A stretch of 20,000 nucleotides of DNA from an uncultured virus (IMG/VR IMGVR_UViG_3300008117_000258) (IMGVR_UViG_3300008117_000258), one strand, 5' to 3'. Positions 4,266-20,000 are shown, counted from the first letter of the stretch. The notes: generated by a model from the sequence alone, not told the origin. Numbers and translations: made by a program.

Positions 4266-4269
4266 ATAG

Positions 4270-6393: not shown

Positions 6394-6420
6394 GATTCCC
6401 CCAATTAAATGTTTTTGTTT

Positions 6421-6627: not shown

Positions 6628-6642
6628 ATATACAGTATACCA

Positions 6643-7556: not shown

Positions 7557-7558
7557 TA

Positions 7559-8260: not shown

Positions 8261-8358
8261 TTGTGTCCTTTCATATGTCTTACAAGTGTATCACTAGCCA
8301 TCCTTGATCTTGACTCAATTTCTTTTTTGCATACTGGACATATAACTATTTTAGCCAT
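8257..8358 (-). CDS. 33-aa C2H2 zinc-finger-like microprotein
   Basis: MAKIVICPVCKKEIESRSRMASDTLVRHMKGHK; GGAG RBS; stop overlaps the GTG start of the next gene (GTGA). Confidence 0.6.
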   Translation of the reverse strand: MAKIVICPVCKKEIESRSRMASDTLVRHMKGHK

Positions 8359-8410
8359 AACTACTCCCACTCTATGTTGTTGATACTAAGCCAATCAAGA
8401 TAGTTAATGA

Positions 8411-8773: not shown

Positions 8774-8823
8774 ATTTATACTCTCTTTCATATCCAAGTG
8801 ACTTCCAGTCCATCTTAATAATC

Positions 8824-8943
8824 TTAGGCTCTTTTGGCATTTACACACCAAATGTTTTCATCTTGCATTGTTTGATGGGCTTCCCAAAAGTATTCAGACT
8901 CTTTTGACATGTAACACTTATCACAAATATTTTTATTTTCCAT
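8824..8943 (-). CDS. Small hypothetical protein, 39 aa (CxxC...H...C)
   Basis: MENKNICDKCYMSKESEYFWEAHQ...WCVNAKRA. Confidence 0.45.
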   Translation of the reverse strand: MENKNICDKCYMSKESEYFWEAHQTMQDENIWCVNAKRA

Positions 8944-8947
8944 TTTA

Positions 8948-9115
8948 TTATTCAAATGATTCCTGTGTTTTGTAAAAATCATCACTGCCAAACATAATAT
9001 CTATCATTTTGTTTTCAACTTTATCTAAGCATTTAGGGCATTGTTTAGTAGGTCTTGGAGTATCGTAATCAACCTCAAAGGCATAACCACAATCAAAGCA
9101 TAACACTTCTGGCAT
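8948..9115 (-). CDS. Small zinc-ribbon protein, 55 aa
   Basis: CFDCG...CPKC; GGAGG RBS. Confidence 0.6.
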   Translation of the reverse strand: MPEVLCFDCGYAFEVDYDTPRPTKQCPKCLDKVENKMIDIMFGSDDFYKTQESFE

Positions 9116-9239
9116 TATAGATCCTCCATAATATAATCAAACACTTTTTCTACTACTCTATCAATTTCGTCAGGGTACTGAGACTCCAACTGACACACCC
9201 TACAATCACACATATACTAAGTATAGCAAGTAATAGAAC

Positions 9240-9584
9240 TTATTGCAAGTAATCTATTAATTCTTGTATTTTTTCTTTTGGCTCTGCGACCCACTCTAAA
9301 GCATCTTCGCTTTGTAAAATATCTTTTAGATGAACAACTGCTTCATGTATTTCTCTTTTTAACTTATCACGCAAAAGAGTAGAGGCCATTTCAGCCGTGC
9401 CACATCTAGGGCTAGTCCAATGGTCCAGTATATATCCGCTATGATGTGCCTCATAGTATGGTTCCTTTCCATATGAATAAGTCTTCGTAATGTACCAGTG
9501 ACAATCACGGTCTTTGTGATGATCTAAACTAACATATTTTTGCCACTTTGCCGTAAGTTCAATTAATTCATCTTCAAGTTTCAT
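9240..9584 (-). CDS. Hypothetical phage protein
   Basis: ORF with TTGACT-17-TATACT-N6-ATG leaderless promoter (9591-9619). Confidence 0.75.
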   Translation of the reverse strand: MKLEDELIELTAKWQKYVSLDHHKDRDCHWYITKTYSYGKEPYYEAHHSGYILDHWTSPRCGTAEMASTLLRDKLKREIHEAVVHLKDILQSEDALEWVAEPKEKIQELIDYLQ

Positions 9585-9669
9585 ATATCCAGTATATTCT
9601 TTTTGGGCTATAAAGTCAAGCCGTCAATAGGTTTTTAAGTTCGGCGACTTATAGAGGTTTTAAACCTTA

Positions 9670-9888
9670 CTAAGCCCTAAAAGGGCTATATCGGTTAATA
9701 GCCTTGTTTGCTGCCAATTCTGCATCTTCTTCTGTGTGGGTATATCCAAAAGTTATAACCTTAAACCCATTATATAGAGTCCATTTCCAAGGAATCGGGG
9801 GAAGAAAAAACTTATCCTGATTCTTAACAGGCTTACCATTAGATTTAACAGGAGGTTTATACTCCTCAATAACTATCTTAAGTGTCAA
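9670..9888 (-). CDS. Hypothetical protein
   Basis: Probable TTG start overlapping the stop of the glycosylase gene. Confidence 0.5.
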   Translation of the reverse strand: MTLKIVIEEYKPPVKSNGKPVKNQDKFFLPPIPWKWTLYNGFKVITFGYTHTEEDAELAANKAINRYSPFRA

Positions 9889-10358
9889 ACCAATATCCCA
9901 ACATGAGTAGGCCAATAGTATAAACACCTATCGCAACAAGGTTTGGCAACACTATTTCTATACTCTGCATAGTAAAGAGGATCTTTGCGATATAGGTTAG
10001 CCTTATGGCTATCAAGAACTCTCTTCAACTGTTCTTGGTTTTGCATCCAAAAAGGAGTAGCCTTACCCCAGTTTAATGAAAATCTAATTTCTAAGTCTTT
10101 TAGGTTTGCAACATTCTTGTCAGTCTTGATGCCACGAAACTCTGCTTCGTAAACCATATGGTCAATATAACTCTTTAGTTCATACTCACAGCCTTTCCAC
10201 ATAAGAACTGCTGGATGGTTTCGCCAAGCACCAGACTCAGATGCGCCAGATAGAATCTTAAGTATTTGATAGCCTTCTAGAATCTGCTTGTTAAGGCGCT
10301 TATTGTCTAGGGTTTGGGCAGTGTATTCGTAATCTGCTGAAGGTAGAAAGGTTTGCAT
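9885..10358 (-). CDS. Pyrimidine-dimer DNA glycosylase/DenV-like protein (MSMEG_6728 family)
   Basis: MQTFLP, LD.KRL.KQ..E..QIL, W.NHPA..MW.G and SH..NL.RKDP..Y motifs. Confidence 0.88.
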   Translation of the reverse strand: MQTFLPSADYEYTAQTLDNKRLNKQILEGYQILKILSGASESGAWRNHPAVLMWKGCEYELKSYIDHMVYEAEFRGIKTDKNVANLKDLEIRFSLNWGKATPFWMQNQEQLKRVLDSHKANLYRKDPLYYAEYRNSVAKPCCDRCLYYWPTHVGILV

Positions 10359-10398
10359 ATATCTATTATCTCAAGGTTTGCAGATAAAGTCAAGTCTT

Positions 10399-10629
10399 TT
10401 ATAAATGTATTTTATTGACAGGTTCTTTAGACCAATGTATATAAGATTTAATATACACTGCTGCATAGGCAATTGCTGCAAAGATAAAGCCATATTGCTT
10501 AGTGGTTACAGCATAGATAATCCATAGGAACTCGTTGAACAATAGCAATAGCCATCCCCAAATGGTCTTACGACCAACAAAGAATATGCCTGTTACACCG
10601 ATTGCTGCTAATATATATGACCACCACAT
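10399..10629 (-). CDS. Small PnuC-like membrane protein
   Basis: Three hydrophobic helices, GRK..WGW......LW..YA....QYGF; leaderless promoter TTGACT-17-TATCAT. Confidence 0.65.
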   Translation of the reverse strand: MWWSYILAAIGVTGIFFVGRKTIWGWLLLLFNEFLWIIYAVTTKQYGFIFAAIAYAAVYIKSYIHWSKEPVNKIHL

Positions 10630-10677
10630 ATATCCATGATACCAGGTTTTGGCGGGGAAGTCAAGTATAATGAATCT

Positions 10678-10998
10678 ATGGCAATCCTATATCTAATATA
10701 TAACCCTATATTTAAAGCCTTCAAGATAGGTGTAGGAGATTTGTCTGGAAGTAGATACTCAGAGCATAGGCGTAAGGGATGGGTTCTGGTCAAGTATTGG
10801 TATTTCTCAGATAGATCAAAAGCCTTCAAGGTGGAGAAGATGGTTTTACAAACCCTAAAGAAGAGGTTTATATCTGGTTTTGTATCCAAAGAAAATATGC
10901 CACAGGGAGGGTTTAGCGAAACCTTTGATGCTTCTCAAACCTCATCTACTAAGATTATTAGAACAATAAACAGGGCGATCAAAAATTCGGGGAACTAA
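10678..10998 (+). CDS. GIY-YIG/T5orf172-like nuclease domain protein
   Basis: LYLIY...FKIG....R..EH...E...G.SETF; TATAAT-N6-ATG at 10666-10680. Confidence 0.6.
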   Translation: MAILYLIYNPIFKAFKIGVGDLSGSRYSEHRRKGWVLVKYWYFSDRSKAFKVEKMVLQTLKKRFISGFVSKENMPQGGFSETFDASQTSSTKIIRTINRAIKNSGN

Positions 10999-11022
10999 AA
11001 GGATGCTTCGTAATCCCTATAG

Positions 11023-11190
11023 TCATGAACCCATCTCTATAACACCCTTAGTATCCAGACATAGTTTGCATATCTCAAAGAACATAGTTCCAGAAGAATC
11101 TATCCTATAGTCATAATCACAGACATGTGGGGTTTTTCTCATATCGTTGAAACGCTTCCAAGGGTCTTGCATGAAGTCATCTATGTCCAT
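11023..11190 (-). CDS. Small hypothetical protein (H.C...CKLC)
   Basis: TATACT-N6-ATG at 11202-11188. Confidence 0.55.
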   Translation of the reverse strand: MDIDDFMQDPWKRFNDMRKTPHVCDYDYRIDSSGTMFFEICKLCLDTKGVIEMGS

Positions 11191-11425
11191 GTATCCAGTA
11201 TATCGTATGGACAAAGGTTTGATATACCCCCCAAATATAGTACCAAATGTCTGGTTTGATACTAGATATGGTGGTTTGATAGCAAATTAAATGTTACTGA
11301 TATTTTTATGATTTATCCTAAAGTGGAGGAAAGTGGAGCATAGTGGGTTATTGAGCATTTCTAAGAAGGGCGTTCGTAATGTCTTGGGGGCCCCAAACCT
11401 CATATCCCCAAACCTTCCTAGCGGG

Positions 11426-11454
11426 ATTATACTCCAAACCTTCCTATTTGTCAA
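11426..11454 (-). promoter_or_regulatory. Consensus sigma70 promoter
   Basis: TTGACA-AATAGGAAGGTTTGGAG-TATAAT. Confidence 0.8.
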
Positions 11455-11476
11455 ACCTCATATGCATGGTTTGGGC

Positions 11477-11505
11477 ATTATATACCAAACCTTTATAGTT
11501 GTCAA
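11477..11505 (-). promoter_or_regulatory. Consensus sigma70 promoter
   Basis: TTGACA-ACTATAAAGGTTTGGTA-TATAAT. Confidence 0.8.
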
Positions 11506-11667
11506 GCCCATTTTATGCATAAAAAAATCCTACAAAAATGCAGAAAAATGTAGGAAAATCCAGCAAAAAGGTTTGAAAGGTTTGGAAAATATCCAGAAAA
11601 CCAGGAAAAAAGGTTTGTTATTCTAATGGGGTTTATTACTATAGGGATTGGGATCTATTCTAAAAGT

Positions 11668-11793
11668 CCCGTGATTTTTTCTGAAGGGTTCGTAAAGGGT
11701 TATTGACAGAAATGGTTTGATGTGGTAGAATCCCCGTGAATTTTTGCGAGGGGTTCGTAAAGTCCCGTGATTTTTTTTAGAGGGTTCGTAAAG
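11668..11793. repeat. Three 30-bp direct repeats CCCGTGA-N11(T-rich)-GGGTTCGTAAAG
   Basis: Copies at 11668-11697, 11733-11762 and 11764-11793. Confidence 0.9.
11703..11731 (+). promoter_or_regulatory. sigma70 promoter with no downstream ORF
   Basis: TTGACA-17nt-TAGAAT between repeat copies 1 and 2. Confidence 0.7.
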
Positions 11794-11842
11794 CGTGTTT
11801 CAAGAATTTTCGACAATTGAAAAAAACGGAAAGCAGCCTAGT

Positions 11843-12091
11843 CTATGCTAGTGCTGCTAACCATTTGTCCATAGTTTTTGTATCTGGATCTATGTCTAAT
11901 AGGATATTGAGTGCTTCCCAAGCGGTATTGATAATAGCCTTGCCATGAGAGGTAGCCTTAGCCTCACCCTTCAATATAAAACCACATAACTCACATTCGT
12001 TTTGGAAGTCTTTGAAGAACTCTTCAGGTACAAAGTCTACTGCACCATGATATAGAGAACTCATTATCTTTACTTTACTATTGAAGTCCAT
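11843..12091 (-). CDS. Hypothetical protein
   Basis: ORF track. Confidence 0.65.
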   Translation of the reverse strand: MDFNSKVKIMSSLYHGAVDFVPEEFFKDFQNECELCGFILKGEAKATSHGKAIINTAWEALNILLDIDPDTKTMDKWLAALA

Positions 12092-12311
12092 CTCTCCACC
12101 TCTGCCTCATTACATTTGGGTCAAGCACTGCTTCTCTTTCATATTGCATTGCCTCTAGTATAGCCTCTAGTCGTGTGTAAGTCAATTGTGGCAGTACCCT
12201 CGCCAACATGACTCCAGTAGTTTCAAGGTCAAGGTTTAGGTCTTCTACAATAGTTTTAATTCTCATTGCTACCCGTTCTTCGGGTGATGTCCCAGTCCGT
12301 AGTCTTCTCAT
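12078..12311 (-). CDS. Hypothetical protein
   Basis: ORF track; GGGAG RBS. Confidence 0.7.
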   Translation of the reverse strand: MRRLRTGTSPEERVAMRIKTIVEDLNLDLETTGVMLARVLPQLTYTRLEAILEAMQYEREAVLDPNVMRQRWRDGLQ

Positions 12312-12334
12312 GAATCTCCCTTATCTATTGTATC

Positions 12335-12383
12335 AAAAAGTAGAGAGGGGGGCAAGTCCCACCACAAGCCTGCCCCCCATCTC
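12335..12383 (-). terminator. Rho-independent terminator
   Basis: GAGATGGGGGGCA...TGCCCCCCTCTC hairpin then TACTTTTT. Confidence 0.65.
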
Positions 12384-12403
12384 ATTATATGGACAGGGTG
12401 ACC

Positions 12404-12766
12404 CTACCCTATCACTTGCTCAGTCAAGACTCGTGGGGCATATGCATTAATGAATGCCTCCCAATCTACCGACACATTATCAATAACAGTCTTAGTAGTA
12501 AAGTCAACAATCACTGTTTGCTCACCTAGGTCAAAGTTATCTCCATGGACCGCATAGAGCCCAAACCCTGTTTCATCAAGGATGTTATGTTGAATAAGAT
12601 AACTGATCACCATACGTGTGCCATACGATGAGTCATCCCAGCGTCTACGTGCATGCTGCAGCGCCTCTGCAATGTCAGGCTGCCATGAATCCTGGCCCCA
12701 GTGTGAGTAGAGTACTACAGATGAATCGGTACCGTCTTTAAATACAAAGTTAATCCGTGCTCCCAT
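12404..12766 (-). CDS. Hypothetical phage protein
   Basis: MGAR.N....LY.HW; TAATG coupling with the upstream gene. Confidence 0.75.
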   Translation of the reverse strand: MGARINFVFKDGTDSSVVLYSHWGQDSWQPDIAEALQHARRRWDDSSYGTRMVISYLIQHNILDETGFGLYAVHGDNFDLGEQTVIVDFTTKTVIDNVSVDWEAFINAYAPRVLTEQVIG

Positions 12767-13104
12767 TATTCCTGCTCCCCTAGTTCTCCGTCAAAGTCAA
12801 TTACTACCATTGTGACACGTCCATCATCGTTTGTCTTTACATAAACAGGATAAAGGCCGTCGCCGTATCCAGTAGAGAACACTACAGCGGAACCGTTGCC
12901 AATTTCACCGTATGCCTCGTTAATAGTCTGATTACATGCTCCTAGATAAGAATATTCGCCTATGTGGTTTTCGGGTAGGAATTCATCCTCTGAGTTAGTA
13001 TCCCATTGGTCTAGATAGCAAGGGTCCCCAACCATAGCCTGCCCGCTGTCAACAGCAAAGGACCCAGCATAGGTCAAGTCTTTCATTAGTGTAGTGGTAT
13101 TCAT
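12766..13104 (-). CDS. DUF4241-like protein
   Basis: VDSG...GDP.Y and FSTGYGDG.YPVY motifs. Confidence 0.7.
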   Translation of the reverse strand: MNTTTLMKDLTYAGSFAVDSGQAMVGDPCYLDQWDTNSEDEFLPENHIGEYSYLGACNQTINEAYGEIGNGSAVVFSTGYGDGLYPVYVKTNDDGRVTMVVIDFDGELGEQE

Positions 13105-13532
13105 TCTGTCTCCTCTAGTTTTTTCATTTCTTCAATGGTAGCACAGTTAGGGCATTTTTCCAAATCAATGCTATCAAATTTATCTCTAATTAAATTATCA
13201 GGGTCTTCAAACTCTGCGTCACAGTTACCACAGTAAAACCATGGGTCTGATATCTTTACCTGAATAGTTGTATTTTCGGGGAATGGAACCTCAGTAATAA
13301 AATAACCAATCCTATTAACAAAGCCCCATCCAGACCATAGATAAGACCCACCGTCATCACCATCTCCATACATCCAAATATGGTTTGGCGGGGTAGACTT
13401 AACAAACTCTACCTCATCCCCATAGGTCTCAAACATATGACCGTCAAAGGAAGCATTTACATCTATATGGTTTTTGATTGGTTTGTAGGTTTCAAACCAT
13501 TCATCTTCTGTCATCTCAATAAAGTTATCCAT
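13101..13532 (-). CDS. Hypothetical protein with C-terminal zinc ribbon
   Basis: G...VNRIGYFITE.P; CGNC...CPNC. Confidence 0.7.
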   Translation of the reverse strand: MDNFIEMTEDEWFETYKPIKNHIDVNASFDGHMFETYGDEVEFVKSTPPNHIWMYGDGDDGGSYLWSGWGFVNRIGYFITEVPFPENTTIQVKISDPWFYCGNCDAEFEDPDNLIRDKFDSIDLEKCPNCATIEEMKKLEETE

Positions 13533-13806
13533 TAGCCTTGGCCCTATCTGATATAGCAAATGCTAGTTGATATGTTAGTGCGTATACCGCTTCAAGTGCG
13601 TCCATGTATCCTGAATTATATAGTCGCTCAACGGTGTCTTCGTACTCCTCATCAGAACCAAGTTCATCAGAGTTCTCCAGCAGCGGTACAAGTATCTTCT
13701 CACACTCATACATCATATTCTTAAGTTCACCATGTAGGATATCAGTACCTGATTCCCCTAGGTCTACGAGTTTTTGCAGTCTTGGGTCTAGTTGTGTTGT
13801 TTCCAT
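13525..13806 (-). CDS. Hypothetical acidic protein
   Basis: Leaderless start after TGTCAG-N10-TATGAT (13813-13834). Confidence 0.7.
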   Translation of the reverse strand: METTQLDPRLQKLVDLGESGTDILHGELKNMMYECEKILVPLLENSDELGSDEEYEDTVERLYNSGYMDALEAVYALTYQLAFAISDRAKANG

Positions 13807-14036
13807 TATGCAATCATATCCTCTGCCACTGACAAAAGGTGGCGGGTATTATAAATCTCAGCCTCTTTAGTCCTATAGAAATGAGGCTCTTCTTGCTCAT
13901 CTACCTCAATAGAATAAACTTCAGCGCTATAAGCATAGTCCTCGTAATTCCAGCCTTCTTGTTCTGCTGCGGCTTCATCTTCTGCCTCAACTTCCATGAA
14001 GTACTCAACAATCACTTTAACATCATAAATGGGCAT
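13806..14036 (-). CDS. Hypothetical acidic protein (VEAEDE.AA motif)
   Basis: AAGGAG RBS. Confidence 0.7.
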   Translation of the reverse strand: MPIYDVKVIVEYFMEVEAEDEAAAEQEGWNYEDYAYSAEVYSIEVDEQEEPHFYRTKEAEIYNTRHLLSVAEDMIA

Positions 14037-14068
14037 TTTTTTTGACTCCTTCTTAATGGTTTGATATA

Positions 14069-14299
14069 TTAATTATAGGGGTTTGAGTCTATCTTTACAA
14101 CCTGTGTGGGTGTGATGTTGCTCACATCTGTGATGATAGGGGCATAGGCCTCTTCATAACTAATATAGTTTAACATTCTGCCACAGGGACATTGCATCTG
14201 GACTACTCCCAGGGGAAAGTCATAGCCATCCCTGGCGGTAAACTCAATAAGAGCATCACACTCATCGGGATCGCATACAAATGTATATTTACTCCACAT
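14069..14299 (-). CDS. Hypothetical zinc-binding protein
   Basis: CDPDEC...CPCG. Confidence 0.65.
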   Translation of the reverse strand: MWSKYTFVCDPDECDALIEFTARDGYDFPLGVVQMQCPCGRMLNYISYEEAYAPIITDVSNITPTQVVKIDSNPYN

Positions 14300-14457
14300 T
14301 AGTCAAAGTACCCTTCTGCCCATAGGCCTGACAAGAAGTCTGAGGCCTGTGTTAAGTTTCTGTGTAACCAAGGGTCATCGTCAGGATTCACGGTAGTTAA
14401 TGCAGAATCAATGGCAAGAACCATATTATCTAAATCATCTCTCTCATATCCTAGCAT
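14299..14457 (-). CDS. Hypothetical protein, 52 aa
   Basis: MLGYERDDLDNM...GLWAEGYFD; TAATG coupling on both sides. Confidence 0.65.
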   Translation of the reverse strand: MLGYERDDLDNMVLAIDSALTTVNPDDDPWLHRNLTQASDFLSGLWAEGYFD

Positions 14458-14615
14458 TACTCACCCCAATACTTTACGATGGTTTGCAGGGTACTGTGAA
14501 TATTACAATCACAATCTCCCCCCATATTATCCATAAAGTCTATATGAGAGAAGTTATCCTCATAGATAGTCTCTACTAATTCAGAGATGGTTTGAGGTTT
14601 TAAGGTTTGGGTCAT
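14457..14615 (-). CDS. Hypothetical protein, 52 aa
   Basis: MTQTLKPQTISEL...CDCNIH...YWGE; coupled to both neighbours. Confidence 0.6.
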   Translation of the reverse strand: MTQTLKPQTISELVETIYEDNFSHIDFMDNMGGDCDCNIHSTLQTIVKYWGE

Positions 14616-14830
14616 GCTATTTCCTTTTCATAGGCAGGTAGGCTTACTACCGTCAATTCTAGCATTTCATCAGGGTATCTGTCAACTACCCAGTTCAGGG
14701 CTTCCCCAGCAGTTTTGAAATCAGTAGCAGTACTACTAGTTCCATAACCATTAATGGTGGCTTCCCAGCAATCAGTCCCACCTGGTGAGACAGAATAGTT
14801 CATTTCATATATTGCTACTTGTTTGGTCAT
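14612..14830 (-). CDS. Hypothetical protein
   Basis: Leaderless ATG 6 nt after TATAAT (14837-14842). Confidence 0.7.
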   Translation of the reverse strand: MTKQVAIYEMNYSVSPGGTDCWEATINGYGTSSTATDFKTAGEALNWVVDRYPDEMLELTVVSLPAYEKEIA

Positions 14831-14836
14831 ATTAAT

Positions 14837-14865
14837 ATTATAGTGGTTTGGACTGACATCTGCAA
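14837..14865 (-). promoter_or_regulatory. TGTCAG-type promoter
   Basis: TTGCAG-A-TGTCAG-N10-TATAAT. Confidence 0.8.
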
Positions 14866-14971
14866 GTCCCGTGAATTTTTTACTAAAGACCTTAATCATA
14901 AATAGTCCTCAGAAATATCATGATTTTTTCGACCCGCATTTTTATGCATTGCATTGCATTTTTATTTATTG

Positions 14972-15045
14972 CGATCCGTACGGGACTTGAACCCGTGACC
15001 TCTACCGTGACAGGGTAGCGAACTAACCAACTATTCTAACGGACC
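14972..15045 (-). tRNA. tRNA-Asp(GTC)
   Basis: Anticodon arm CTACC-CTGTCAC-GGTAG; acceptor GGTCCGT/ACGGATC. Confidence 0.93.
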
Positions 15046-15051
15046 AAATGG

Positions 15052-15078
15052 TGAGCAGTTTTAATTCATGCTCAGGAA
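15052..15078 (-). ncRNA. H-type pseudoknot motif copy
   Basis: TTC-CTGAGCAT-GAA-TTA-AAACTGCTCA. Confidence 0.65.
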
Positions 15079-15084
15079 ATTGTA

Positions 15085-16101
15085 TCATGCTAGTTGCATA
15101 ACATTCTGCACAACTTTTAGCAGACGATTTTTTTCTGCGTTGATAGCAGGGTCAAATCCACTTGCACTTGCAAGGATAGATTCGTTATTGCCACCACGAG
15201 CAGAACGGTACCAGTCAAGGCGCTCAGTAAGTGCATTGAAAGCGCCCCATGCAGAGCCAGCAATCATGCCGTTAAATTCGCCAGTGTAAATGTCGTTGAT
15301 AATATCAACTTTATTTTCCCACTTCTTGACCGCACCCTTAGCGTCTTTCTCAGGCTTAGGATAAGCAGCAAGAATGATGTCGTTGAATTGCTTAGCAGAA
15401 ACTTCTTTCTCAATCATAGCCTTAGCCATAATATCAAATTCGTCCATGTAAGTATTAGCAAGACCAAGAGTCTCACGAGCAATCTGCACTTTACCATTGG
15501 CAGTCTGCGTGTGGCGAATCTTGAATGATTGCTTGACACCATTCTTCTTCTTGCGTGAGCCTAGTGCAAGATTAAGAGTGTTAGCGCACACAACACGAAC
15601 GGGTGTTATGCTTGCTTGAATAGCGATTGAGCCATCGTGTGATGTGTTGATGAGCAAATAAGTCTTTACCTTATCTGCAACACCGCTAGGGTCTAGGATT
15701 GTTTCACGCTCTAATGCAAGAGAGCCGAATACAACACGACCACCCTTGATTGCGCCTGCGGTTTCCCAACGACCACCGCCGTCTAGGATATTATCACCGA
15801 ATGAGAATAAATCTTCATTCTGCAATACATGATAGCGCTCACCAACTACACCAAGAATATCAGTCTGGGTGTTATCGGTAGGATTTGTACGCAAAACATA
15901 TTGGTATGCCTTGTCGCTAGTTAGATGTGATGGGGTTTCCAAATCCTCTAAGCGAACATTCCAACCGTTTAGATTTGCTGCTTCCAACATTTCTGCGGTT
16001 GTTTTTTCCTCAGTGAATACGGTACCCAATCCATGCCATGCTGGTTCACGGAAAGATGCAAAAGATGTCTTACCGTTTTGTGTTTCTAGGTCATGTGCCA
16101 T
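15085..16101 (-). CDS. DUF932 (phage/plasmid-like) protein
   Basis: PAWHGLG, LGVVG..Y...QN...F, ETAG...GG, YLL..SHDG, TPVRVVCANTL, RHT and WGA.NA.TE motifs. Confidence 0.92.
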   Translation of the reverse strand: MAHDLETQNGKTSFASFREPAWHGLGTVFTEEKTTAEMLEAANLNGWNVRLEDLETPSHLTSDKAYQYVLRTNPTDNTQTDILGVVGERYHVLQNEDLFSFGDNILDGGGRWETAGAIKGGRVVFGSLALERETILDPSGVADKVKTYLLINTSHDGSIAIQASITPVRVVCANTLNLALGSRKKKNGVKQSFKIRHTQTANGKVQIARETLGLANTYMDEFDIMAKAMIEKEVSAKQFNDIILAAYPKPEKDAKGAVKKWENKVDIINDIYTGEFNGMIAGSAWGAFNALTERLDWYRSARGGNNESILASASGFDPAINAEKNRLLKVVQNVMQLA

Positions 16102-16131
16102 GAGTGTTTCTCCTTTTTGTTTGTTTATACA

Positions 16132-16160
16132 ATCATAACATGACCCACCGACAAATGCAA
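16132..16160 (-). promoter_or_regulatory. TGTCRG-type promoter
   Basis: TTGCAT-T-TGTCGG-N10-TATGAT. Confidence 0.8.
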
Positions 16161-16201
16161 ATCAGGATAGTTAAATAGGGGTAAATCGGACATTTTGGGG
16201 G

Positions 16202-16217
16202 TGTGATCAATCTCACG
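16202..16217. promoter_or_regulatory. CRP/GlxR-like site
   Basis: TGTGA-N6-TCACG. Confidence 0.6.
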
Positions 16218-16263
16218 TAATCGTAACTTGACAATGACTGGTCATTCGGGTCGAAAAATTTAT

Positions 16264-16429
16264 TAAGCCTTTTTCCATCATGCTTAGGATGTATGGGTTC
16301 TTACACCTGCCCAATAAGGTGGCTCTATAGTATTTCTATTATCGCCCTAATCAGCCTGGCGAAAAGTGAGCAGTTTACGTGGCCGTGCTCAGGGCCCTTA
16401 CCTAGTTTAAAGACATTCGGCATGTCTTT
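16264..16429 (-). ncRNA. Array of five back-to-back H-type pseudoknots
   Basis: Units at 16399-16429, 16367-16396, 16321-16362, 16292-16321 and 16264-16291. Each is a stem-loop plus A-rich linker plus a tail complementary to its own loop. Confidence 0.7.
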
Positions 16430-16447
16430 TCATAGCCCCCTATGAAA

Positions 16448-16867
16448 TTAGTAGTCAACCTCGTCATAGTTAGTATCTACAACGTTTGAATCTTCATTCA
16501 TGAGTTCAACGTGATATGAATTTACATTGAATTCAATTGTTGACAATATGTCATCAATATCCTCACCTGATTCAACACATATGGTAAATGTGTGGTCTAC
16601 GGTCATAGTAACGTCATAGTTCTGTGATAACGTGAAGTCGCCAATCTTTGCAAGCGCTTGGGCCTGCTCCATGGAGATATTCTCTTCATTAAGTTCACTG
16701 CGGGTCCAGTCCTTGAGATCTTCCTTAAGTCTATTAAGTGCTGCTGCAGTGTTCATGTCCCGCTGTGCAAGACGTGCATGTGATTCTTCTAGTTGAGTAA
16801 TACGCAATGTGGCCTTGGCCAATTCATCACGTAGAAATGTCTCTGTTGCGTAGTTTACTGTATCCAT
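16448..16867 (-). CDS. Hypothetical protein (coiled-coil N-terminus, acidic C-terminus)
   Basis: ORF track. Confidence 0.75.
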   Translation of the reverse strand: MDTVNYATETFLRDELAKATLRITQLEESHARLAQRDMNTAAALNRLKEDLKDWTRSELNEENISMEQAQALAKIGDFTLSQNYDVTMTVDHTFTICVESGEDIDDILSTIEFNVNSYHVELMNEDSNVVDTNYDEVDY

Positions 16868-16872
16868 AGGGG

Positions 16873-17136
16873 TTATTCCATTTCTTTCTCTAGTTGTTCA
16901 AATTCTTTGATGGTATTAATCATCTCATCCATTTGGTCTTTTGTCAAGCACACATTTGATACTAGTGTGGCAGTAAGTGAGGCAAGGTGAGCAGAATAAC
17001 TCCAAATTGCCTCAATGAATTCTTGTTCTGTCATTGATTCACGATGTTCGCTAATCTTCTTTGCCATTAGCATTGTGCTGAAGTCTGTAACTGCGTCGCC
17101 AGTTGCTTCTTGAATTTGTATTGCGGTGGATATCAT
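16873..17136 (-). CDS. Hypothetical protein
   Basis: ORF track; downstream of the promoter at 17167-17195. Confidence 0.75.
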   Translation of the reverse strand: MISTAIQIQEATGDAVTDFSTMLMAKKISEHRESMTEQEFIEAIWSYSAHLASLTATLVSNVCLTKDQMDEMINTIKEFEQLEKEME

Positions 17137-17166
17137 GAGGGCCTGCTTTCTTTGTTGTTTAATATA

Positions 17167-17195
17167 AGTATATATCTCAGGACTGACAAATGCAA
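17167..17195 (-). promoter_or_regulatory. TGTCAG-type promoter
   Basis: TTGCAT-T-TGTCAG-N10-TATACT. Confidence 0.8.
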
Positions 17196-17235
17196 CTTAA
17201 ATACCCGTGAATCTTAAATAGTGAGACGTAAACCA

Positions 17236-17251
17236 TGTGAGAAAGATCACA
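17236..17251. promoter_or_regulatory. CRP/GlxR-like site
   Basis: TGTGA-GAAAGA-TCACA (perfect consensus). Confidence 0.65.
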
Positions 17252-17282
17252 CGGGTCGAAAAATTTTTGCGGGGAATTTAGA

Positions 17283-17309
17283 GAGCAGTTTAAACTCATG
17301 CTCAGGAGT
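17283..17309 (-). ncRNA. H-type pseudoknot motif copy
   Basis: ACTC-CTGAGCAT-GAGT-TT-AAACTGCTC. Confidence 0.7.
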
Positions 17310-17360
17310 ATCATCTCAGGGAACACTTGCTACAAGTAGCGTGGAGCGCAGAGATGAAAC

Positions 17361-17531
17361 TTACTTAGATGTTTTTACCATTGCAAAGCGGTGTGCGCCG
17401 TTTGCTAACTGTAATGAAACTCTAGTTAGTTTAGCGTTGATAGGAGTAAAGTTGCTAATGCGACCTGTAATTCCTGTCTTGCTTGTTGTGAATAGATCAC
17501 CGATTTGGTAAGTGTATCCGCCTAGTGTCAT
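17361..17531 (-). CDS. Small basic SH3/KOW-like beta-barrel protein, 56 aa; paralog of 18180..18341
   Basis: MTLGGYTYQIGDLFTTSKTGITGRISNFTPINAKLTRVSLQLANGAHRFAMVKTSK; GAAAGG RBS. Confidence 0.7.
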   Translation of the reverse strand: MTLGGYTYQIGDLFTTSKTGITGRISNFTPINAKLTRVSLQLANGAHRFAMVKTSK

Positions 17532-17569
17532 TTTGGGTCTTGCCTTTCTGTTGTGGTGGTTAAAGTTGG

Positions 17570-17599
17570 TGAGCAGTTTTAGTTGTCATGCTCAGGACA
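17570..17599 (-). ncRNA. H-type pseudoknot motif copy
   Basis: TGTC-CTGAGCAT-GACA-ACTA-AAACTGCTCA. Confidence 0.7.
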
Positions 17600-17614
17600 T
17601 TTCCCCGTTGGGAA

Positions 17615-18040
17615 TTATAGGTATCGTGCTACCGCATTGTATGTTGAGGTATTAACTGTTTCCTCATCTGTCATCTTGAGGATACGAATTGCATTTTGGA
17701 TTTCTTCCTTCTGCTCACGATATGTGTGCTGATGGATAACCTCAAAATCCTTAGTTGGCTCTGTTGGCAAATCCTTTTGGGATACTGTCAAATCAAAGTC
17801 AATGTTTAGATTGTTATTCCAAGAACGGAAGTTGGTTCTAAAGTTTTCTGCCTTAGAGATATTCTTGACGGCATAAGCAATAAGTTCCTTCTTATACTTA
17901 TCCCACTCTTTCTGATACTTTGCTTCATTTGCTTCTTGTGAGGCGTAGTCTGCCTCTAGTTTAGCAAGTGCGCCTTCTAGTGCCTTGATTACTTTAGGTG
18001 TAGCGATTTTAACGCTAATTGCTTTTCCTCTTGTTGCCAT
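17615..18040 (-). CDS. Hypothetical phage protein
   Basis: ORF track; promoter at 18074-18095. Confidence 0.8.
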   Translation of the reverse strand: MATRGKAISVKIATPKVIKALEGALAKLEADYASQEANEAKYQKEWDKYKKELIAYAVKNISKAENFRTNFRSWNNNLNIDFDLTVSQKDLPTEPTKDFEVIHQHTYREQKEEIQNAIRILKMTDEETVNTSTYNAVARYL

Positions 18041-18073
18041 TTTTTGCTCTCTTTTCTTTGGTGGTTGATATTT

Positions 18074-18095
18074 ATTATAGGGGGTGGAACTGACA
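18074..18095 (-). promoter_or_regulatory. TGTCAG-type promoter
   Basis: TGTCAG-N10-TATAAT. Confidence 0.75.
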
Positions 18096-18110
18096 TTTCC
18101 CCCGAAGGGG

Positions 18111-18169
18111 GGAGAGTTCTTACTTACGACATTGGGCTAGAACACTCTCCTAAACTGCCCCTGTTTCGC
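18111..18169 (-). ncRNA. Candidate structured RNA (extended pseudoknot)
   Basis: GGAGAG..TTCT/AGAACTCTCC stem; loop GCCC and TCGT pair with upstream GGGC and GCGA. Confidence 0.5.
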
Positions 18170-18179
18170 TATGAAAGGC

Positions 18180-18341
18180 TTATGCCTTCCAAGTAGTCCA
18201 GCGTGGTGAGCCATTTACATCTAACTTGACACGAACTGTGTTCTTGTTAGTTGGCACGATTTCTACGATAGTGCCTGTAATCTTAGACTTCTGTGAAGTA
18301 TAAGTGTCGCCTACCTTGTATGTTGCTACGCCTACTGTCAT
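18180..18341 (-). CDS. Small basic SH3/KOW-like beta-barrel protein, 53 aa
   Basis: MTVGVATYKVGDTYTSQKSKITGTIVEIVPTNKNTVRVKLDVNGSPRWTTWKA; AAGGAG RBS. Confidence 0.75.
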   Translation of the reverse strand: MTVGVATYKVGDTYTSQKSKITGTIVEIVPTNKNTVRVKLDVNGSPRWTTWKA

Positions 18342-18371
18342 TTGTTTCTCCTTTGTTTGGTTGATATATTA

Positions 18372-18400
18372 AGTCTAGCATTTTCTACTGACATTTACAA
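18372..18400 (-). promoter_or_regulatory. TGTCAG-type promoter
   Basis: TTGTAA-A-TGTCAG-N10-TAGACT. Confidence 0.8.
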
Positions 18401-18441
18401 CATTTTTCCCTAAAAATCTCATATATTGAGATATATTGGGG

Positions 18442-18457
18442 TGTGATTTACATCACC
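18442..18457. promoter_or_regulatory. CRP/GlxR-like site
   Basis: TGTGA-TTTACA-TCACC. Confidence 0.6.
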
Positions 18458-18526
18458 TTCCGCCTGCCACCATTAGAATTGCCCCTACTATGGCTAAAAT
18501 GATTATTAGATTATTCATTTATCCCC

Positions 18527-19249
18527 TCACTTTTTGGTTGCGCTAAACACTATATCAGATTTCTCATAAATACACAACTTGCAGGTGGCGCATGCTGAGC
18601 CTTTTTGAGAGATAAGGGGAATAGCCTTTTTATTTTCAGGGCACTTAGCACCAGGCTTACCTGTTAGTGCCTTCATGTCTGCTTGCCCTATTAAGAAATT
18701 TTTGGCAAGGTATGCAAGGGATACGCCATGATTATTCTTGAGATCAATTCCCGTATCCTTATTCTCACTGTCTGTAGAATAGTATAAAGATAGATTAGGA
18801 ATGTCTTTAAGAATGAGCGCTGCAGATTTAACTCTTGTGTATACCCAGAATTGAATATCAGGATATTTATCCATAACTACTTTCCACGCATATGCGTAGG
18901 TATCGTTAAAGAAATCTCCGTCCCAGTGGATACGGAATAACTTTTGTGCATTGCGCTTATCACAATCTGCATTAAACTCATGAATCATTTCATTAAGTAG
19001 ACGGACCATTGTTTCTCCGTCTGCGTCTTTAAGTAGTTCCCAGTTATGAAGTAGGTTAACCTTTACTGTTGGGAATACCTTTTCCAACTTGCCTGCGTAG
19101 CAAATAGTTTCGCAGATAGACGTAGCACCAGGACATGAAAAGTTTTTTCCTGCGGGTAATCCGAATGTGTTTGCAATACTTGCTTGTTTTCCGTTAGGGG
19201 TGACGGCATTGGCTACTTTCCTATCTTTGCTTCTAAGTAATTTGGACAT
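18527..19249 (-). CDS. gp88-family protein (radical-SAM-like, Cys-rich)
   Basis: F.LPA..SCPGAT..C...CYA, FRIHWDGDF, FWVYTR and CP...C..C..C motifs. Confidence 0.8.
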   Translation of the reverse strand: MSKLLRSKDRKVANAVTPNGKQASIANTFGLPAGKNFSCPGATSICETICYAGKLEKVFPTVKVNLLHNWELLKDADGETMVRLLNEMIHEFNADCDKRNAQKLFRIHWDGDFFNDTYAYAWKVVMDKYPDIQFWVYTRVKSAALILKDIPNLSLYYSTDSENKDTGIDLKNNHGVSLAYLAKNFLIGQADMKALTGKPGAKCPENKKAIPLISQKGSACATCKLCIYEKSDIVFSATKK

Positions 19250-19255
19250 GGTGGA

Positions 19256-19402
19256 TTACTCACTTTCTTTTTCTCTTTCTAATCTTAACATTAGGGACTG
19301 ACATTTCTTGCGGTTGTATTTCTTTTTATTTGGGATCGCTGAGGCAGCATTAGAACGGCGAAGTTCCATAAGTCTACGTAATTCCTCAGATGTTTTTTTC
19401 AT
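19256..19402 (-). CDS. Small basic protein, 48 aa
   Basis: MKKTSEELRRLMELRRSNAASAIPNKKKYNRK...; preceded by TTGTAT-17-TAGTAT-N5-ATG. Confidence 0.65.
   Translation of the reverse strand: MKKTSEELRRLMELRRSNAASAIPNKKKYNRKKCQSLMLRLEREKESE
19282..19303 (-). promoter_or_regulatory. TGTCAG-type promoter
   Basis: TGTCAG-N10-TAAGAT upstream of the gp88-like gene. Confidence 0.7.
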
Positions 19403-19580
19403 ACTTAATACTATCAGATTTAGGGGAAAAATACAAGTCTACGTAAAACGGACATTGCGGACAAAAGGGGCGGGTCGAAATTTTTATTCGTCTAAATCTA
19501 CATACACATATAAATCAACATATGCATCGTGTGCAAGTATTAGCGTATCACGTTCACCATATGTATCAGTAGCAGTCATT

Positions 19581-19919
19581 TTAGTACCCCTCATCATATT
19601 CTAGTGAGAGTGGGAAGTCATCAGACCCATCTTGCCAGTCATCTACTGGGTCAATGAAAGTATGAAGGTGGTGCTGGTCTACAATAGCGTGTGCAGGTGC
19701 TTGCGTTGAGCCACGATATAGAATCTGAAAGTCACCAACCTTTGGCATATCAATCATGCGGTCATAGTCCTCATCATAGTATGCGTCAATAGCCTCAATA
19801 CATGGTGCTACCATTTCTGCGGGTACTGGAGGATAGTGATTACCCTTCAAGTGATATAGAATCTGAGTCTCCAAGTCCAAGACTGTATCTTTAATTCCTA
19901 GTGCGGTTACTGAACCCAT
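19581..19919 (-). CDS. Hypothetical phage protein
   Basis: HL.GNHYPPVP...AI...HHL..F. Confidence 0.75.
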   Translation of the reverse strand: MGSVTALGIKDTVLDLETQILYHLKGNHYPPVPAEMVAPCIEAIDAYYDEDYDRMIDMPKVGDFQILYRGSTQAPAHAIVDQHHLHTFIDPVDDWQDGSDDFPLSLEYDEGY

Positions 19920-20000
19920 TATGCTCTTACCTGTACCTTTCCATCACGATAAAAAACTTTTGTGTAGCATTTGCCAGTTGGCGTATAAAGATTAACTGTA
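19919..20000 (-). CDS. 3' end of a hypothetical protein (partial)
   Basis: ...TVNLYTPTGKCYTKVFYRDGKVQVRA*, TAATG-coupled to the next gene. Confidence 0.55.
   Translation of the reverse strand, partial: TVNLYTPTGKCYTKVFYRDGKVQVRA

What the first reader, a model, noticed from the sequence alone, without database searches (positions are those of the whole stretch)
15052..17599. Dispersed pseudoknot family stem-CTGAGCAY-stem-AAACTGCTC with covariation in both helices
Five copies lie on the transcribed strand, all downstream of stop codons: 15052-15078, 16264-16291, 16367-16396, 17283-17309 and 17570-17599. The P1 sequence differs in every copy but always pairs (TTC/GAA, CATC/GATG, GGCC/GGCC, ACTC/GAGT, TGTC/GACA). 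P2 shows a compensatory change: loop CTGAGC with tail GCTC(A) becomes loop CTAAGC with tail GCTTA. This is internal evidence for a functional RNA structure rather than a DNA operator. The conserved loop and AAAC linker suggest triplex contacts or a protein/ligand site (inference). One copy sits 6 nt upstream of tRNA-Asp.
Basis: partly seen in the sequence, partly recalled or inferred. Interest (0 to 1): 0.85.

Follow-up and report, generated by a model that had tools for sequence, protein, structure and literature searches.

The report
Portable RNA pseudoknot behind phage genes
Five copies of a 30-base knotted RNA fold sit just behind genes of this freshwater phage; the same uncatalogued fold recurs in many unrelated phages, so it is a real, widespread RNA device whose job (probably guarding or marking message ends) is still untested.

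Summary
The window holds four exact copies and one variant of NNNC-CUGAGCAY-GNNN-N(2-4)-AAAC-UGCUCA, all on the coding (minus) strand, where 0 are expected by chance.

The motif is a widespread family. In IMG/VR viral contigs 126 of 139 pattern matches carry the flanking P1 helix. Only 18 of 121 chance-dominated matches in bacterial genomes do.

Both helices covary. P1 shows all Watson-Crick pair types. P2 shows independent double changes at four of its six pairs, plus a co-insertion. G-U pairs outnumber A-C pairs 23 to 5, which points to the sense-strand RNA. No Rfam 15 family matches.

- Copies are untranslated, and 120 of 124 lie on the coding strand.
- They sit right behind stop codons, with a hard floor of 5 nt.
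- They travel with the upstream gene (DUF932, HSP20 and others).
- They cluster in one early region.

The closest known fold is the plant-virus "coremin" exonuclease-resistant RNA. It shares the C-G closing pair, the pyrimidine L1 and the NN-AAA-CU linker. Its loop consensus and its required second hairpin are not met.

My best reading is a protein-independent roadblock or 3'-end module (0.4). Earlier notes of this scan reported coremin-like knots on other phage DNA.

The parts
15052..15078 (-). PK1. P1 is 15078-15076 with 15067-15065. The loop CUGAGCAU is 15075-15068. The linker UUAAAAC is 15064-15058. The P2 3' strand UGCUCA is 15057-15052. It lies 5-6 nt after the DUF932 gene's stop and 6 nt before tRNA-Asp.
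   Evidence: (47.2 bits)
16264..16291 (-). PK2, a variant copy. P1 is CAUC/GAUG. The loop is CUAAGCAU and the tail is GCUUA, so loop G>A is compensated by tail C>U. Its linker is the AAAAAG type.
   Evidence: (13.3 bits, partial match)
16367..16396 (-). PK3. P1 is GGCC/GGCC, the loop is CUGAGCAC, the linker is ACGUAAAC and the tail is UGCUCA.
   Evidence: 27.6 bits
17283..17309 (-). PK4. P1 is ACUC/GAGU, the loop is CUGAGCAU, the linker is UUAAAC and the tail is UGCUC. In the nearest relative G001 both P1 arms are swapped together while the downstream flank is identical.
   Evidence: (48.6 bits)
17570..17599 (-). PK5. P1 is UGUC/GACA, the loop is CUGAGCAU, the linker is ACUAAAAC and the tail is UGCUCA. 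It sits between the 141-aa and the 56-aa genes.
   Evidence: (35.7 bits)
17600..17614 (-). P0, an ordinary small hairpin (UUCCC-AAC-GGGGAA) between the stop codon and PK5. Relatives carry similar hairpins, some of which include the stop codon itself.
   Evidence: my reading of the sequence
14971..15045 (-). tRNA-Asp (GUC), directly 3' of PK1. The order DUF932 - PK - tRNA-Asp recurs in 7 further distinct loci.
15085..16101 (-). DUF932 gene. In 15 of 17 members of this gene family with enough flanking DNA, a PK follows within 80 nt of the stop.
17161..17195 (-). Sigma-70-like promoter (TTGCAT-17-TATACT) downstream of PK4. It places PK4 at the end of the preceding unit.
   Evidence: plus my reading
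16132..16161 (-). Sigma-70-like promoter (TTGCAT-17-TATGAT) downstream of PK2, ahead of the DUF932 gene.
   Evidence: plus my reading

Best explanation
Each copy is a cis-acting RNA. It is a compact H-type pseudoknot of about 30 nt in the untranslated RNA directly behind a gene.

SHOWN (anatomy):
- P1 is 4 bp, free in sequence but closed by C-G.
- A single C (L1) crosses the 6-bp P2, formed by loop UGAGCA and the 3' strand UGCUCA.
- One nucleotide (Y or A) joins P2 back to P1.
- A linker NN(+insertions)-AAA-C runs along P1.

SHOWN (context):
- The element belongs to the upstream gene and moves with it as a portable 3' module.
- It comes no closer than 5 nt to the stop codon.

INFERRED (mechanism):
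- It works without a protein, as a mechanically robust roadblock that the terminating ribosome does not melt.
- It fixes and protects the 3' end of the upstream message against exonucleases.
- That end would be made by RNase P cleavage at an adjoining tRNA, by termination at a U-tract that follows in a minority of copies, or by other processing.
- It thereby insulates neighbouring cistrons of long early transcripts.
- Its conserved core also offers microhomology, at which phage gene modules are exchanged.
For: Structure:
- 126 of 139 viral pattern matches have at least 3 Watson-Crick P1 pairs next to the loop, against 18 of 121 in bacterial genomes.
- The covariation score is 0.387 against 0.079 in shuffles, with 0 of 500 shuffles as high.
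- P2 has double changes at 4 of 6 pairs, and copy L141:2505 has a co-insertion.
- Nested-only folding predicts P2 alone. P1's covariation therefore requires the knot.

RNA, sense strand, untranslated:
- 120 of 124 copies lie on the coding strand, and 5 of 124 lie inside a same-strand ORF.
- G-U pairs outnumber A-C 23 to 5.

Link to the upstream gene:
- 99 of 124 copies have an ORF ending 70 nt or less upstream.
- 19 copies lie exactly 5 nt from the stop. Only 2 lie closer, both behind ORFs of 45 and 68 aa.
- Ordinary P0 hairpins do overlap stop codons.
- A PK follows DUF932 in 15 of 17 members, a 141-aa family in 10 of 13, and HSP20 in 8 of 9. No family is preceded by a PK in more than 7 of 13 members.
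- In G001 against the window, both P1 arms change together with the upstream side while the downstream flank is identical.

3'-end setting:
- A tRNA starts 3-6 nt after the knot in 9 distinct loci, 8 with tRNA-Asp and 1 with tRNA-Arg.
- Promoters lie downstream of PK4 and PK2.
- A U-rich tract (at least 6 of 8 nt) follows 25 of 169 copies, against 3.3% of control windows.
- Canonical terminators are nearly absent, with 1 of 124 downstream regions against 17 of 620 random windows.
- The 10 nt downstream are G-poor.

Precedent, from passages of PMC6546385, PMC10520033 and PMC10321173: coremin-type knots with the same closing pair, L1 and AAA-CU linker stall Xrn1 and scanning ribosomes without any protein. 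They also drove frameshifting in a screen run in E. coli.
Against: - No RNA ends were mapped. The only RNA data are metatranscriptome contigs, which cannot show ends.
- In five HSP20-type loci a TATAAT box lies between the upstream stop and the knot. There the knot is also a 5' leader element 8-12 nt before the next Shine-Dalgarno.
- In at least three of the bacterial MAG copies examined (L297, L302, L336) a canonical terminator follows the knot. An end-protecting role would be redundant there.
- Coremin-type knots are known to resist attack from the 5' side. Resistance to 3' exonucleases is assumed, not shown.
- Near-invariance of the P2 sequence across phages of different host phyla is more than a mere barrier needs. 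It hints at a specific partner or an intricate tertiary fold.
- The loci were centred on knots found with an exact loop and tail pattern, so family statistics are biased towards the canonical type.
Confidence: 0.4

Rival explanations
1. A true phage counterpart of the coremin xrRNA. The knot stops a 5'-to-3' enzyme coming from upstream, such as RNase J exonuclease, scanning RNase E or Rho. It thereby shields the RNA downstream (the next cistron or a tRNA), or leaves a stable 3' fragment.
For: - It shares the core features of coremin and xrRNA-WCC: the C-G closing pair, a pyrimidine L1, two tolerant first linker bases with insertions tolerated there, an invariant AAA followed by C-U, and loop-to-spacer pairing.
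- Some copies lie 8-30 nt before a start codon or just after a promoter.
- Knots precede tRNAs.
- Among the pattern hits in bacterial genomes that carry P1, the ten whose record titles I read come from MAGs labelled Lachnospiraceae, Eubacteriales, Saccharibacteria, Anaerolineae and Thermodesulfobacteriota, plus two labelled only 'bacterium'. None of those ten is labelled as an enterobacterium. That these groups carry RNase J is recalled, not tested.
- That flaviviral xrRNAs also stop RNase J1 is recalled. PMC5760640 was seen only in a search listing.
Against: - The knot tracks the upstream gene, not the downstream one.
- PK4 and PK2 lie upstream of the next promoters, so transcripts from those promoters lack them.
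- The hp2 hairpin that coremin needs for Xrn1 resistance is absent: 28 of 113 copies have a hairpin there, against 37.1 +/- 4.8 in shuffles.
- The loop does not fit YGAD or YGNNAD.
Confidence: 0.25
2. A recognition site for a trans-acting factor. Candidates are a structure-specific endonuclease (RNase P reading the P1+P2 stack with its 3' A-C-C as an acceptor-arm mimic, or a T7 RNase III-site analogue), RNA polymerase (a put-like antiterminator) or a phage protein.
For: - The loop and tail sequences are nearly invariant across unrelated phages.
- After the tail, A occurs in 71% of copies and C in 49% at the next position. ACCA is the commonest 4-mer, in 15 of 169 copies.
- Four to seven copies per genome, 4-5 of them in one early region, recall the RNase III sites of the T7 early region (the T7 comparison is recalled).
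- A canonical terminator follows the knot in at least three MAG loci, L297, L302 and L336.
Against: - No protein family is shared by the +/-3 kb neighbourhoods.
- ACC follows only 26 of 169 copies.
- P2 can change sequence if the pairing is kept.
- Coremin shows that such conservation can arise from the fold alone.
Confidence: 0.15
3. A new, very small self-cleaving ribozyme that cuts polycistronic phage messages.
For: - Its distribution resembles that of hammerhead, twister and pistol ribozymes in phages. It is intergenic, on the sense strand, multi-copy and found across many hosts, with a conserved core and covarying stems (the ribozyme comparison is recalled).
- The P1 - loop pseudoknot - AAA linker resembles the 5' domain of the pistol ribozyme (recalled).
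Against: - Nothing is conserved outside the roughly 30 nt.
- No known ribozyme family matched, and none was found near the knots in the 40 of 80 flanked loci scanned.
- One metatranscriptome contig runs uncut through PK5 with at least 31 nt on both sides. This is weak evidence, because DNA carry-over is possible.
Confidence: 0.05
4. A DNA-level element: an operator for a dimeric protein on the GAGCA/TGCTC inverted repeat, or a single-stranded-DNA recombination or priming site.
For: - P2 is a DNA inverted repeat.
- Mosaic junctions and assembly joints fall at the knots.
Against: - The P1 arms lie asymmetrically about the repeat, yet they covary.
- G-U pairs outnumber A-C 23 to 5.
- Strand bias relative to genes is strict, at 120 of 124.
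- There is a spacing floor to the stop codon.
Confidence: 0.03

Closest known systems
Coremin motif xrRNA (xrRNA-C) of BNYVV, cucumoviruses and other RNA viruses, and its Watson-Crick variant xrRNA-WCC (passages read in PMC6546385, PMC10520033, PMC10321173)
   Same: - A short hairpin of 3-4 bp closed by C-G.
- The first loop base is a pyrimidine acting as a one-nucleotide L1.
- The first two linker bases are free, and insertions are tolerated there.
- AAA is essential and is followed by C-U.
- The loop pairs with the spacer to give an H-type knot.
- It is usually found in 3' untranslated regions, sometimes in tandem.
- It acts without protein.
   Different: - The loop here is 8 nt (CUGAGCAY), not YGAD or YGNNAD.
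- P2 is 6 canonical pairs and starts one base later, after the C.
- There is no second hairpin (hp2) downstream.
- It is encoded in DNA phages of bacteria, where Xrn1 does not exist.
- Exonuclease resistance is untested.
Luteovirus-type frameshifting pseudoknots (BWYV, PLRV), as described in PMC10321173 and recalled
   Same: A compact H-type knot with a short L1 carrying a C, an A-rich loop lying in the minor groove of stem 1, and a 5-8 nt working distance from the ribosomal A site.
   Different: Here the knot lies behind a stop codon, not behind a slippery heptamer. No extended frame follows it. Stem 2 is long and stem 1 is short.
T4/T2 gene 32 leader pseudoknot (recalled; mentioned in PMC10690425)
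   Same: A phage H-type knot with a one-nucleotide L1, followed by unstructured RNA.
   Different: The gene 32 knot is a single 5'-leader operator bound by gp32. The knot here is multi-copy, lies behind genes and has no identified protein.
Pistol self-cleaving ribozyme, 5' domain (Rfam RF02679; its anatomy is recalled)
   Same: A P1 hairpin whose loop forms a 6-bp pseudoknot, followed by a linker with a conserved AAA. It is frequent in phage spacers.
   Different: There is no P2, no P3 and no G-U cleavage site. No Rfam match was found.
T7 early-region RNase III sites and bacterial REP or terminator hairpins (recalled) - a functional analogy only
   Same: Repeated intercistronic structures just behind stop codons that end up at, and protect, the 3' ends of the upstream messages.
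   Different: Those are long simple hairpins read by RNase III, or acting as plain barriers. This is a 30-nt pseudoknot with a conserved core.

Membership tests
Coremin motif xrRNA-C / xrRNA-WCC | hp1 of 3-4 bp with a pyrimidine-purine (C-G) loop-closing pair; G-C abolishes function | tested here: met
   C-G in 92 of 95 rows, G-C in 2 and U-A in 1. The requirement comes from PMC6546385.
Coremin motif xrRNA-C / xrRNA-WCC | Loop consensus YGAD (4 nt) or YGNNAD (6 nt) | tested here: not met
   The loop is CUGAGCAY/A, 8 nt. Position 1 is C, but position 2 is U, not G. The consensus comes from PMC10520033.
Coremin motif xrRNA-C / xrRNA-WCC | Spacer whose first two bases are free with insertions tolerated at its 5' end, AAA essential, then C-U | tested here: met
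   In A2, columns 20-21 vary, AAA is invariant, and C25 and U26 are invariant. Extra bases occur only at the 5' end of the linker.
Coremin motif xrRNA-C / xrRNA-WCC | Loop-to-spacer interaction (non-canonical in xrRNA-C; 3 Watson-Crick pairs in xrRNA-WCC) | tested here: met
   Six canonical pairs, with compensatory changes at 4 of them. The helix is longer and shifted by one base relative to WCC.
Coremin motif xrRNA-C / xrRNA-WCC | A second hairpin (hp2) directly after the spacer, required for Xrn1 resistance | tested here: not met
   A hairpin of at least 4 bp starts 0-3 nt after the tail in 28 of 113 copies. Shuffles give 37.1 +/- 4.8. The first 5 nt hold 2-5% G.
Coremin motif xrRNA-C / xrRNA-WCC | Stalls a 5'-to-3' exoribonuclease | not testable with these tools
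   This needs an enzyme assay or mapping of RNA ends.
preQ1-I riboswitch (small H-type aptamer with an A-rich tail) | Match to the Rfam covariance model; a 5'-leader position that sequesters the Shine-Dalgarno | tested here: not met
   No Rfam match at the copies at E up to 10. Copies lie behind stop codons and are multi-copy.
Pistol ribozyme (RF02679) | P2 and P3 helices and a G-U cleavage site 3' of the pseudoknot; match to the Rfam model | tested here: not met
   No Rfam match. Nothing is conserved downstream of the tail.
Intrinsic (Rho-independent) terminator | A G+C-rich hairpin immediately followed by a U-tract | tested here: inconclusive
   At least 6 U in 8 nt follow 25 of 169 copies, against 3.3% of controls. 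Most copies lack the tract. The consensus scan finds no terminator at the window's copies.
tRNA-like acceptor-arm pseudoknot (TYMV type) | A coaxial stack of about 12 bp ending in a single-stranded N-CCA 3' end | tested here: not met
   The stack is 10-11 layers. ACC follows 26 of 169 copies and ACCA follows 15 of 169. The copies are internal to transcripts.

The most novel reading that the evidence does not exclude
These knots are the first exoribonuclease- and ribosome-resistant RNAs (xrRNAs) of DNA bacteriophages. On this reading a protein-free mechanical roadblock, sharing its core (C-G closing pair, pyrimidine L1, AAA-CU linker) with the coremin motif of eukaryotic RNA viruses, is used by phages of many bacterial phyla. 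It would cut long messages into stable segments, and it would double as the recombination joint at which gene cassettes are swapped.
Probability: 0.3. Interest if true: 0.85.

Novelty: new variant of a known kind. Interest (0 to 1): 0.7.

Why it matters
If the reading holds, bacterial viruses use the same tiny knotted RNA device as plant and insect RNA viruses to control where RNA-processing machines stop. That would be a case of convergence or very old sharing.

At about 30 nt and with no protein needed, it would be a compact part for stabilising or insulating messages in engineered bacteria. It would also help explain how phages that almost lack classical terminators define their message ends.

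The hard 5-nt floor to the stop codon gives a direct, testable link between the ribosome's footprint and RNA structure.

The family is in no RNA catalogue, although more than 150 copies were seen here. Genome annotation therefore misses it at present.

Tried and rejected
- **Rfam.** A permissive scan of the window and gathering-threshold scans of 40 of the 80 flanked loci found only tRNAs, one tmRNA-model hit of 81 nt in L136 and chance hits. No known family lies at the knots.
- **GenBank phages.** No near match was found. Distant search matched only the tRNA.
- **Literature.** Searches for the motif words, for phage pseudoknot terms and for RNase J with xrRNA in bacteria or phages found no description of this element. 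The catalogue of 8,495 IMG/VR candidate RNAs (PMC10690425) may contain it. A motif search of its supplements covered 6 files with no hit, but 3 files, two of them too large to unpack, were not searched.
- **Generic structural scans without sequence constraints** were too noisy to use.
- **RNA evidence**. Only assembled contigs were available. The RNA runs cover parts of the DUF932 and 141-aa genes, and one contig bridges PK5. No ends can be read, and uncovered parts mean nothing.
- **Upstream promoter idea.** -10 boxes are not enriched at a fixed distance before the knots. They occur only in the HSP20-type loci.
- **Shared neighbouring protein.** None was found within +/-3 kb.
- **Canonical terminator after the knot.** Found in 1 of 124 downstream regions.
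- **tRNA-like CCA end.** Weak.
- **Own genome.** It is not held. The nearest record, G001, was used instead.
Full report
**1. The observation**

From about 4,334 to 20,000 the window's genes run on the minus strand. Read on that strand, five elements have the form P1(5') - CUGAGCAY - P1(3') - linker ending AAAC - UGCUCA. They lie at 15078-15052, 16291-16264, 16396-16367, 17309-17283 and 17599-17570.

The exact pattern occurs four times, only on the minus strand. None occurred in 200 shuffles. The fifth copy (16291-16264) has loop CUAAGCAU and tail GCUUA, so a loop G>A is matched by a tail C>U.

P1 differs in every copy and always pairs. One copy ends 6 nt before tRNA-Asp.

**2. Is it more than chance, and is it a family?**

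- 126 of the 139 have at least 3 Watson-Crick pairs directly flanking the 8-nt loop.
- 99 of the 139 have the same 6-nt distance between the loop and AAAC.

The same pattern in 596 Gb of bacterial and archaeal genomes serves as a control. It gave 121 matches with evenly spread spacings, and only 18 of them have P1. Of those 18, the ten whose record titles I read lie on MAG contigs labelled Lachnospiraceae, Eubacteriales, Saccharibacteria, Anaerolineae and Thermodesulfobacteriota, plus two labelled only 'bacterium'. Five such genomes hold 1-5 copies each, which is what prophages or binned phage contigs would give.

The window's own genome is not held. Its nearest record, G001, carries the same copies. 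DNA runs that hold the stretch are from lakes and fresh water.

**3. Structure**

I aligned 95 copies of equal length (A2). These rows had been chosen for at least 3 P1 pairs; the fourth pair was not selected.
- The three variable P1 pairs use three or four Watson-Crick types each.
- The closing pair is C-G in 92 of 95 rows.
- The covariation score is 0.387, against 0.079 in shuffles and at most 0.093 for slid partners.

A covariance model built from A2 found 163 hits in 437 kb of flanking DNA. Many of these did not match the seed pattern. They supply the test of P2:
- loop CUGGACAU with tail UGUCCA (two loci);
- CUGGGUAU with UGCCCA;
- CUGGGCAA with UGCCCU;
- CUAGGCAU with UGCCUU;
- CUUAGCAU with UGCUAU;
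- CUAAGCAU with UGCUUG or GGCUUA (three loci, including the window);
- CUGAGUAA with UUACUU;
- a co-insertion, UGAGCCA with UGGCUCA.

Two copies are not compensated (L145:2901 and L205:4359). They may be decayed copies or chance hits.

I then aligned 60 rows (A4). They comprise the 3 window copies that fit the 33-nt register, 29 non-canonical model hits from other loci in that register (including both uncompensated ones), and 28 canonical copies. Four of the six P2 pairs show changes on both sides, and no shuffle reaches the observed score.

Wobble pairs that work only in the sense RNA (G-U) number 23. A-C mismatches number 5. Nested folding predicts only the P2 hairpin, at -3 to -7 kcal/mol. 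P1, which clearly exists, must therefore form inside that loop.

The fold is a classical H-type pseudoknot. S1 is 4 bp, L1 is one C, S2 is 6 bp, there is one junction base, and L3 is NN-AAA-C. Extra bases occur only at the 5' end of L3. Two copies carry a whole hairpin inserted at the junction base.

**4. Context**

Among 124 distinct copies, 120 lie on the strand with more ORF sequence, and only 5 lie inside a same-strand ORF of 70 aa or more.

Ninety-nine copies have an ORF ending within 70 nt upstream. The distance from stop codon to P1 piles up at its minimum:
- 19 copies at exactly 5 nt, 8 at 6, 4 at 7 and 7 at 8;
- only two closer than 5 nt, both behind doubtful ORFs of 45 and 68 aa.

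Small ordinary hairpins (P0) that precede some knots start at, or include, the stop codon. From recalled knowledge of the ribosome's mRNA tunnel, 5 nt is about the shortest spacer that lets a stop codon reach the A site while a downstream structure stays folded. It is also the working distance of frameshift-stimulating knots. I read the floor as a sign that the ribosome cannot easily melt this knot. That is an inference.

The distance to the next gene is broad, with a median of 154 nt.

Gene families are followed by a knot far more regularly than they are preceded by one:
- DUF932, 15 of 17;
- a 141-aa family, 10 of 13;
- HSP20, 8 of 9;
- the best 'preceded' value is 7 of 13.

At PK4, the window and G001 share the downstream flank, but both P1 arms and the upstream spacer differ. 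The exchange point therefore lies in the conserved 3' half of the knot, and the knot's variable half goes with the upstream gene. Alternative joints in lake DNA contigs fall at the knots as well.

What follows the knot:
- a tRNA after 3-6 nt in nine distinct loci, eight with tRNA-Asp and one with tRNA-Arg;
- sigma-70-like promoters after PK4 and PK2;
- a U-rich tract in 25 of 169 copies, against 3.3% of controls;
- a canonical terminator in at least three of the MAG copies, L297, L302 and L336;
- almost never a canonical terminator in the lake phages, at 1 of 124.

The 10 nt after the tail are G-poor, with A (71%) then C (49%).

In complete genomes of 105-117 kb, 4-5 copies cluster within about 3.5 kb and 1-2 lie elsewhere. 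A 183-kb phage has a single copy.

In five HSP20-type loci a TATAAT box lies between the stop and the knot. There the knot sits 8-12 nt before the next Shine-Dalgarno. It can therefore also be a leader element.

**5. What it is like**

No Rfam 15 family matches.

[quoted passage not shown] I checked that lead in the papers themselves, reading passages of PMC6546385, PMC10520033 and PMC10321173. Coremin has:
- a 3-4 bp hairpin whose closing pair must be pyrimidine-purine (C-G);
- a loop YGAD or YGNNAD whose first base acts as L1;
- a spacer whose first two bases are free and tolerate insertions;
- an essential AAA followed by C-U-A-C, which interacts with the loop;
- an obligatory second hairpin.

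A Watson-Crick variant forms a 3-bp S2. Coremin stalls Xrn1 and scanning ribosomes and drives -1 frameshifting, including in a screen run in E. coli.

The phage knot shares the closing pair, the L1 pyrimidine, the NN-AAA-C-U linker and the loop-to-spacer helix. It does not fit the loop consensus. It lacks hp2, with a hairpin in 28 of 113 copies against 37.1 +/- 4.8 in shuffles. I therefore do not file it as a coremin motif. I consider it the closest known device, and its behaviour a reasonable model.

**6. Mechanism**

Shown:
- it is a sense-strand RNA pseudoknot;
- it is untranslated;
- it is tied to the 3' end of particular, probably heavily used, early genes;
- it is portable between phages.

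Inferred, at 0.4: it is a protein-independent roadblock that survives the terminating ribosome and fixes or protects the upstream message's 3' end. RNase P cleavage at an adjoining tRNA would leave the knot plus 3-6 nt. From recall, that overhang is too short for 3' exonucleases to grip. A U-tract would make some copies terminators.

Rivals:
- a true xrRNA blocking a 5'-to-3' enzyme such as RNase J and shielding the downstream RNA (0.25);
- a recognition site for a nuclease, polymerase or protein (0.15);
- a small ribozyme (0.05);
- a DNA-level site (0.03).

The main facts against my preferred reading are the leader-type copies, the copies followed by real terminators, the unexplained near-invariance of P2, and the lack of any mapped RNA end. 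The RNA runs available were assembled contigs. One bridges PK5, which says little.

**7. Novelty**

I found no description of this element.
- Motif-word search.
- Phage pseudoknot and structured-RNA searches.
- RNase J with xrRNA.

It may be among the unnamed IMG/VR candidates of PMC10690425. A motif search of that paper's supplements skipped three files, two of them too large to unpack.

The fold type is known. Its use behind genes of DNA phages, this conserved core, and the stop-codon spacing rule are not described, so far as these searches show. I rate it a new variant of a known kind, with interest 0.7.

Noticed in passing
window 17236-17268 and 16202-16254 (minus strand); inverted copy near 14926-14940: After PK4 and PK2 comes AAATTTTTCGACCCG, then a CRP/FNR-type palindrome (TGTGA-N6-TCACA at 17236-17251, TGTGA-N6-TCAC at 16202-16217). 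Further on is a promoter with the shared -35 TTGCATTTGTC. The same block follows knots in relatives (L137, L139, L180). It is probably the regulatory region of the early promoters.
   Followed up: partly
window 16292-16366 (minus strand): The 75-nt stretch between PK3 and PK2 is conserved in relatives (L142, L180). It holds small hairpins and has no ORF or tRNA. It could be a small RNA bracketed by two knots, or a gene remnant.
   Followed up: no
window 17310-17360 versus G001 (L004): The window has about 43 extra nt between the 56-aa gene's stop and PK4, which G001 lacks. The insert ends in CCUGAGAUGAU, which looks like a decayed knot head. This is a scar of recombination at the knot.
   Followed up: partly
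L176:3621-3668 and L178:1309-1371: Two copies carry a whole extra hairpin inserted after CUGAGUA, at the one-base junction between P2 and P1. That position must therefore face outward.
   Followed up: no
L159, L170, L152, L200, L201 (around 2940-3040): After HSP20 genes, a perfect extended -10 box (TGTATAAT or GTATAAT) lies between the stop codon and the knot. In L200 and L201 transcription would start about at P1, making the knot the 5' end of the next message.
   Followed up: partly
L297, L336, L302 (bacterial MAG contigs): In these copies the knot is followed 5-15 nt later by a textbook Rho-independent terminator. In L297 it lies about 32 nt after a tRNA 3' end.
   Followed up: no
window 10636-10998 (+): A lone plus-strand ORF with a weak match to a phage endonuclease family (phrog_681) sits inside the minus-strand gene array. 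It may be a homing-endonuclease-type insertion.
   Followed up: no
window 696-8260: An auxiliary gene set: several glycosyltransferases, a methyltransferase, a Nol-like carbamoyltransferase (4834-6393) and a five-tRNA cluster (3967-4343). This suggests cell-surface or DNA sugar modification.
   Followed up: no
window 14600-18100, DNA run X1: Lake DNA contigs end or join at the knots (for example a contig spanning 16380-17599, and joints 16399>16898 and 17309>15117). This fits repeats breaking the assembly and real variants with different cassettes between knots.
   Followed up: no
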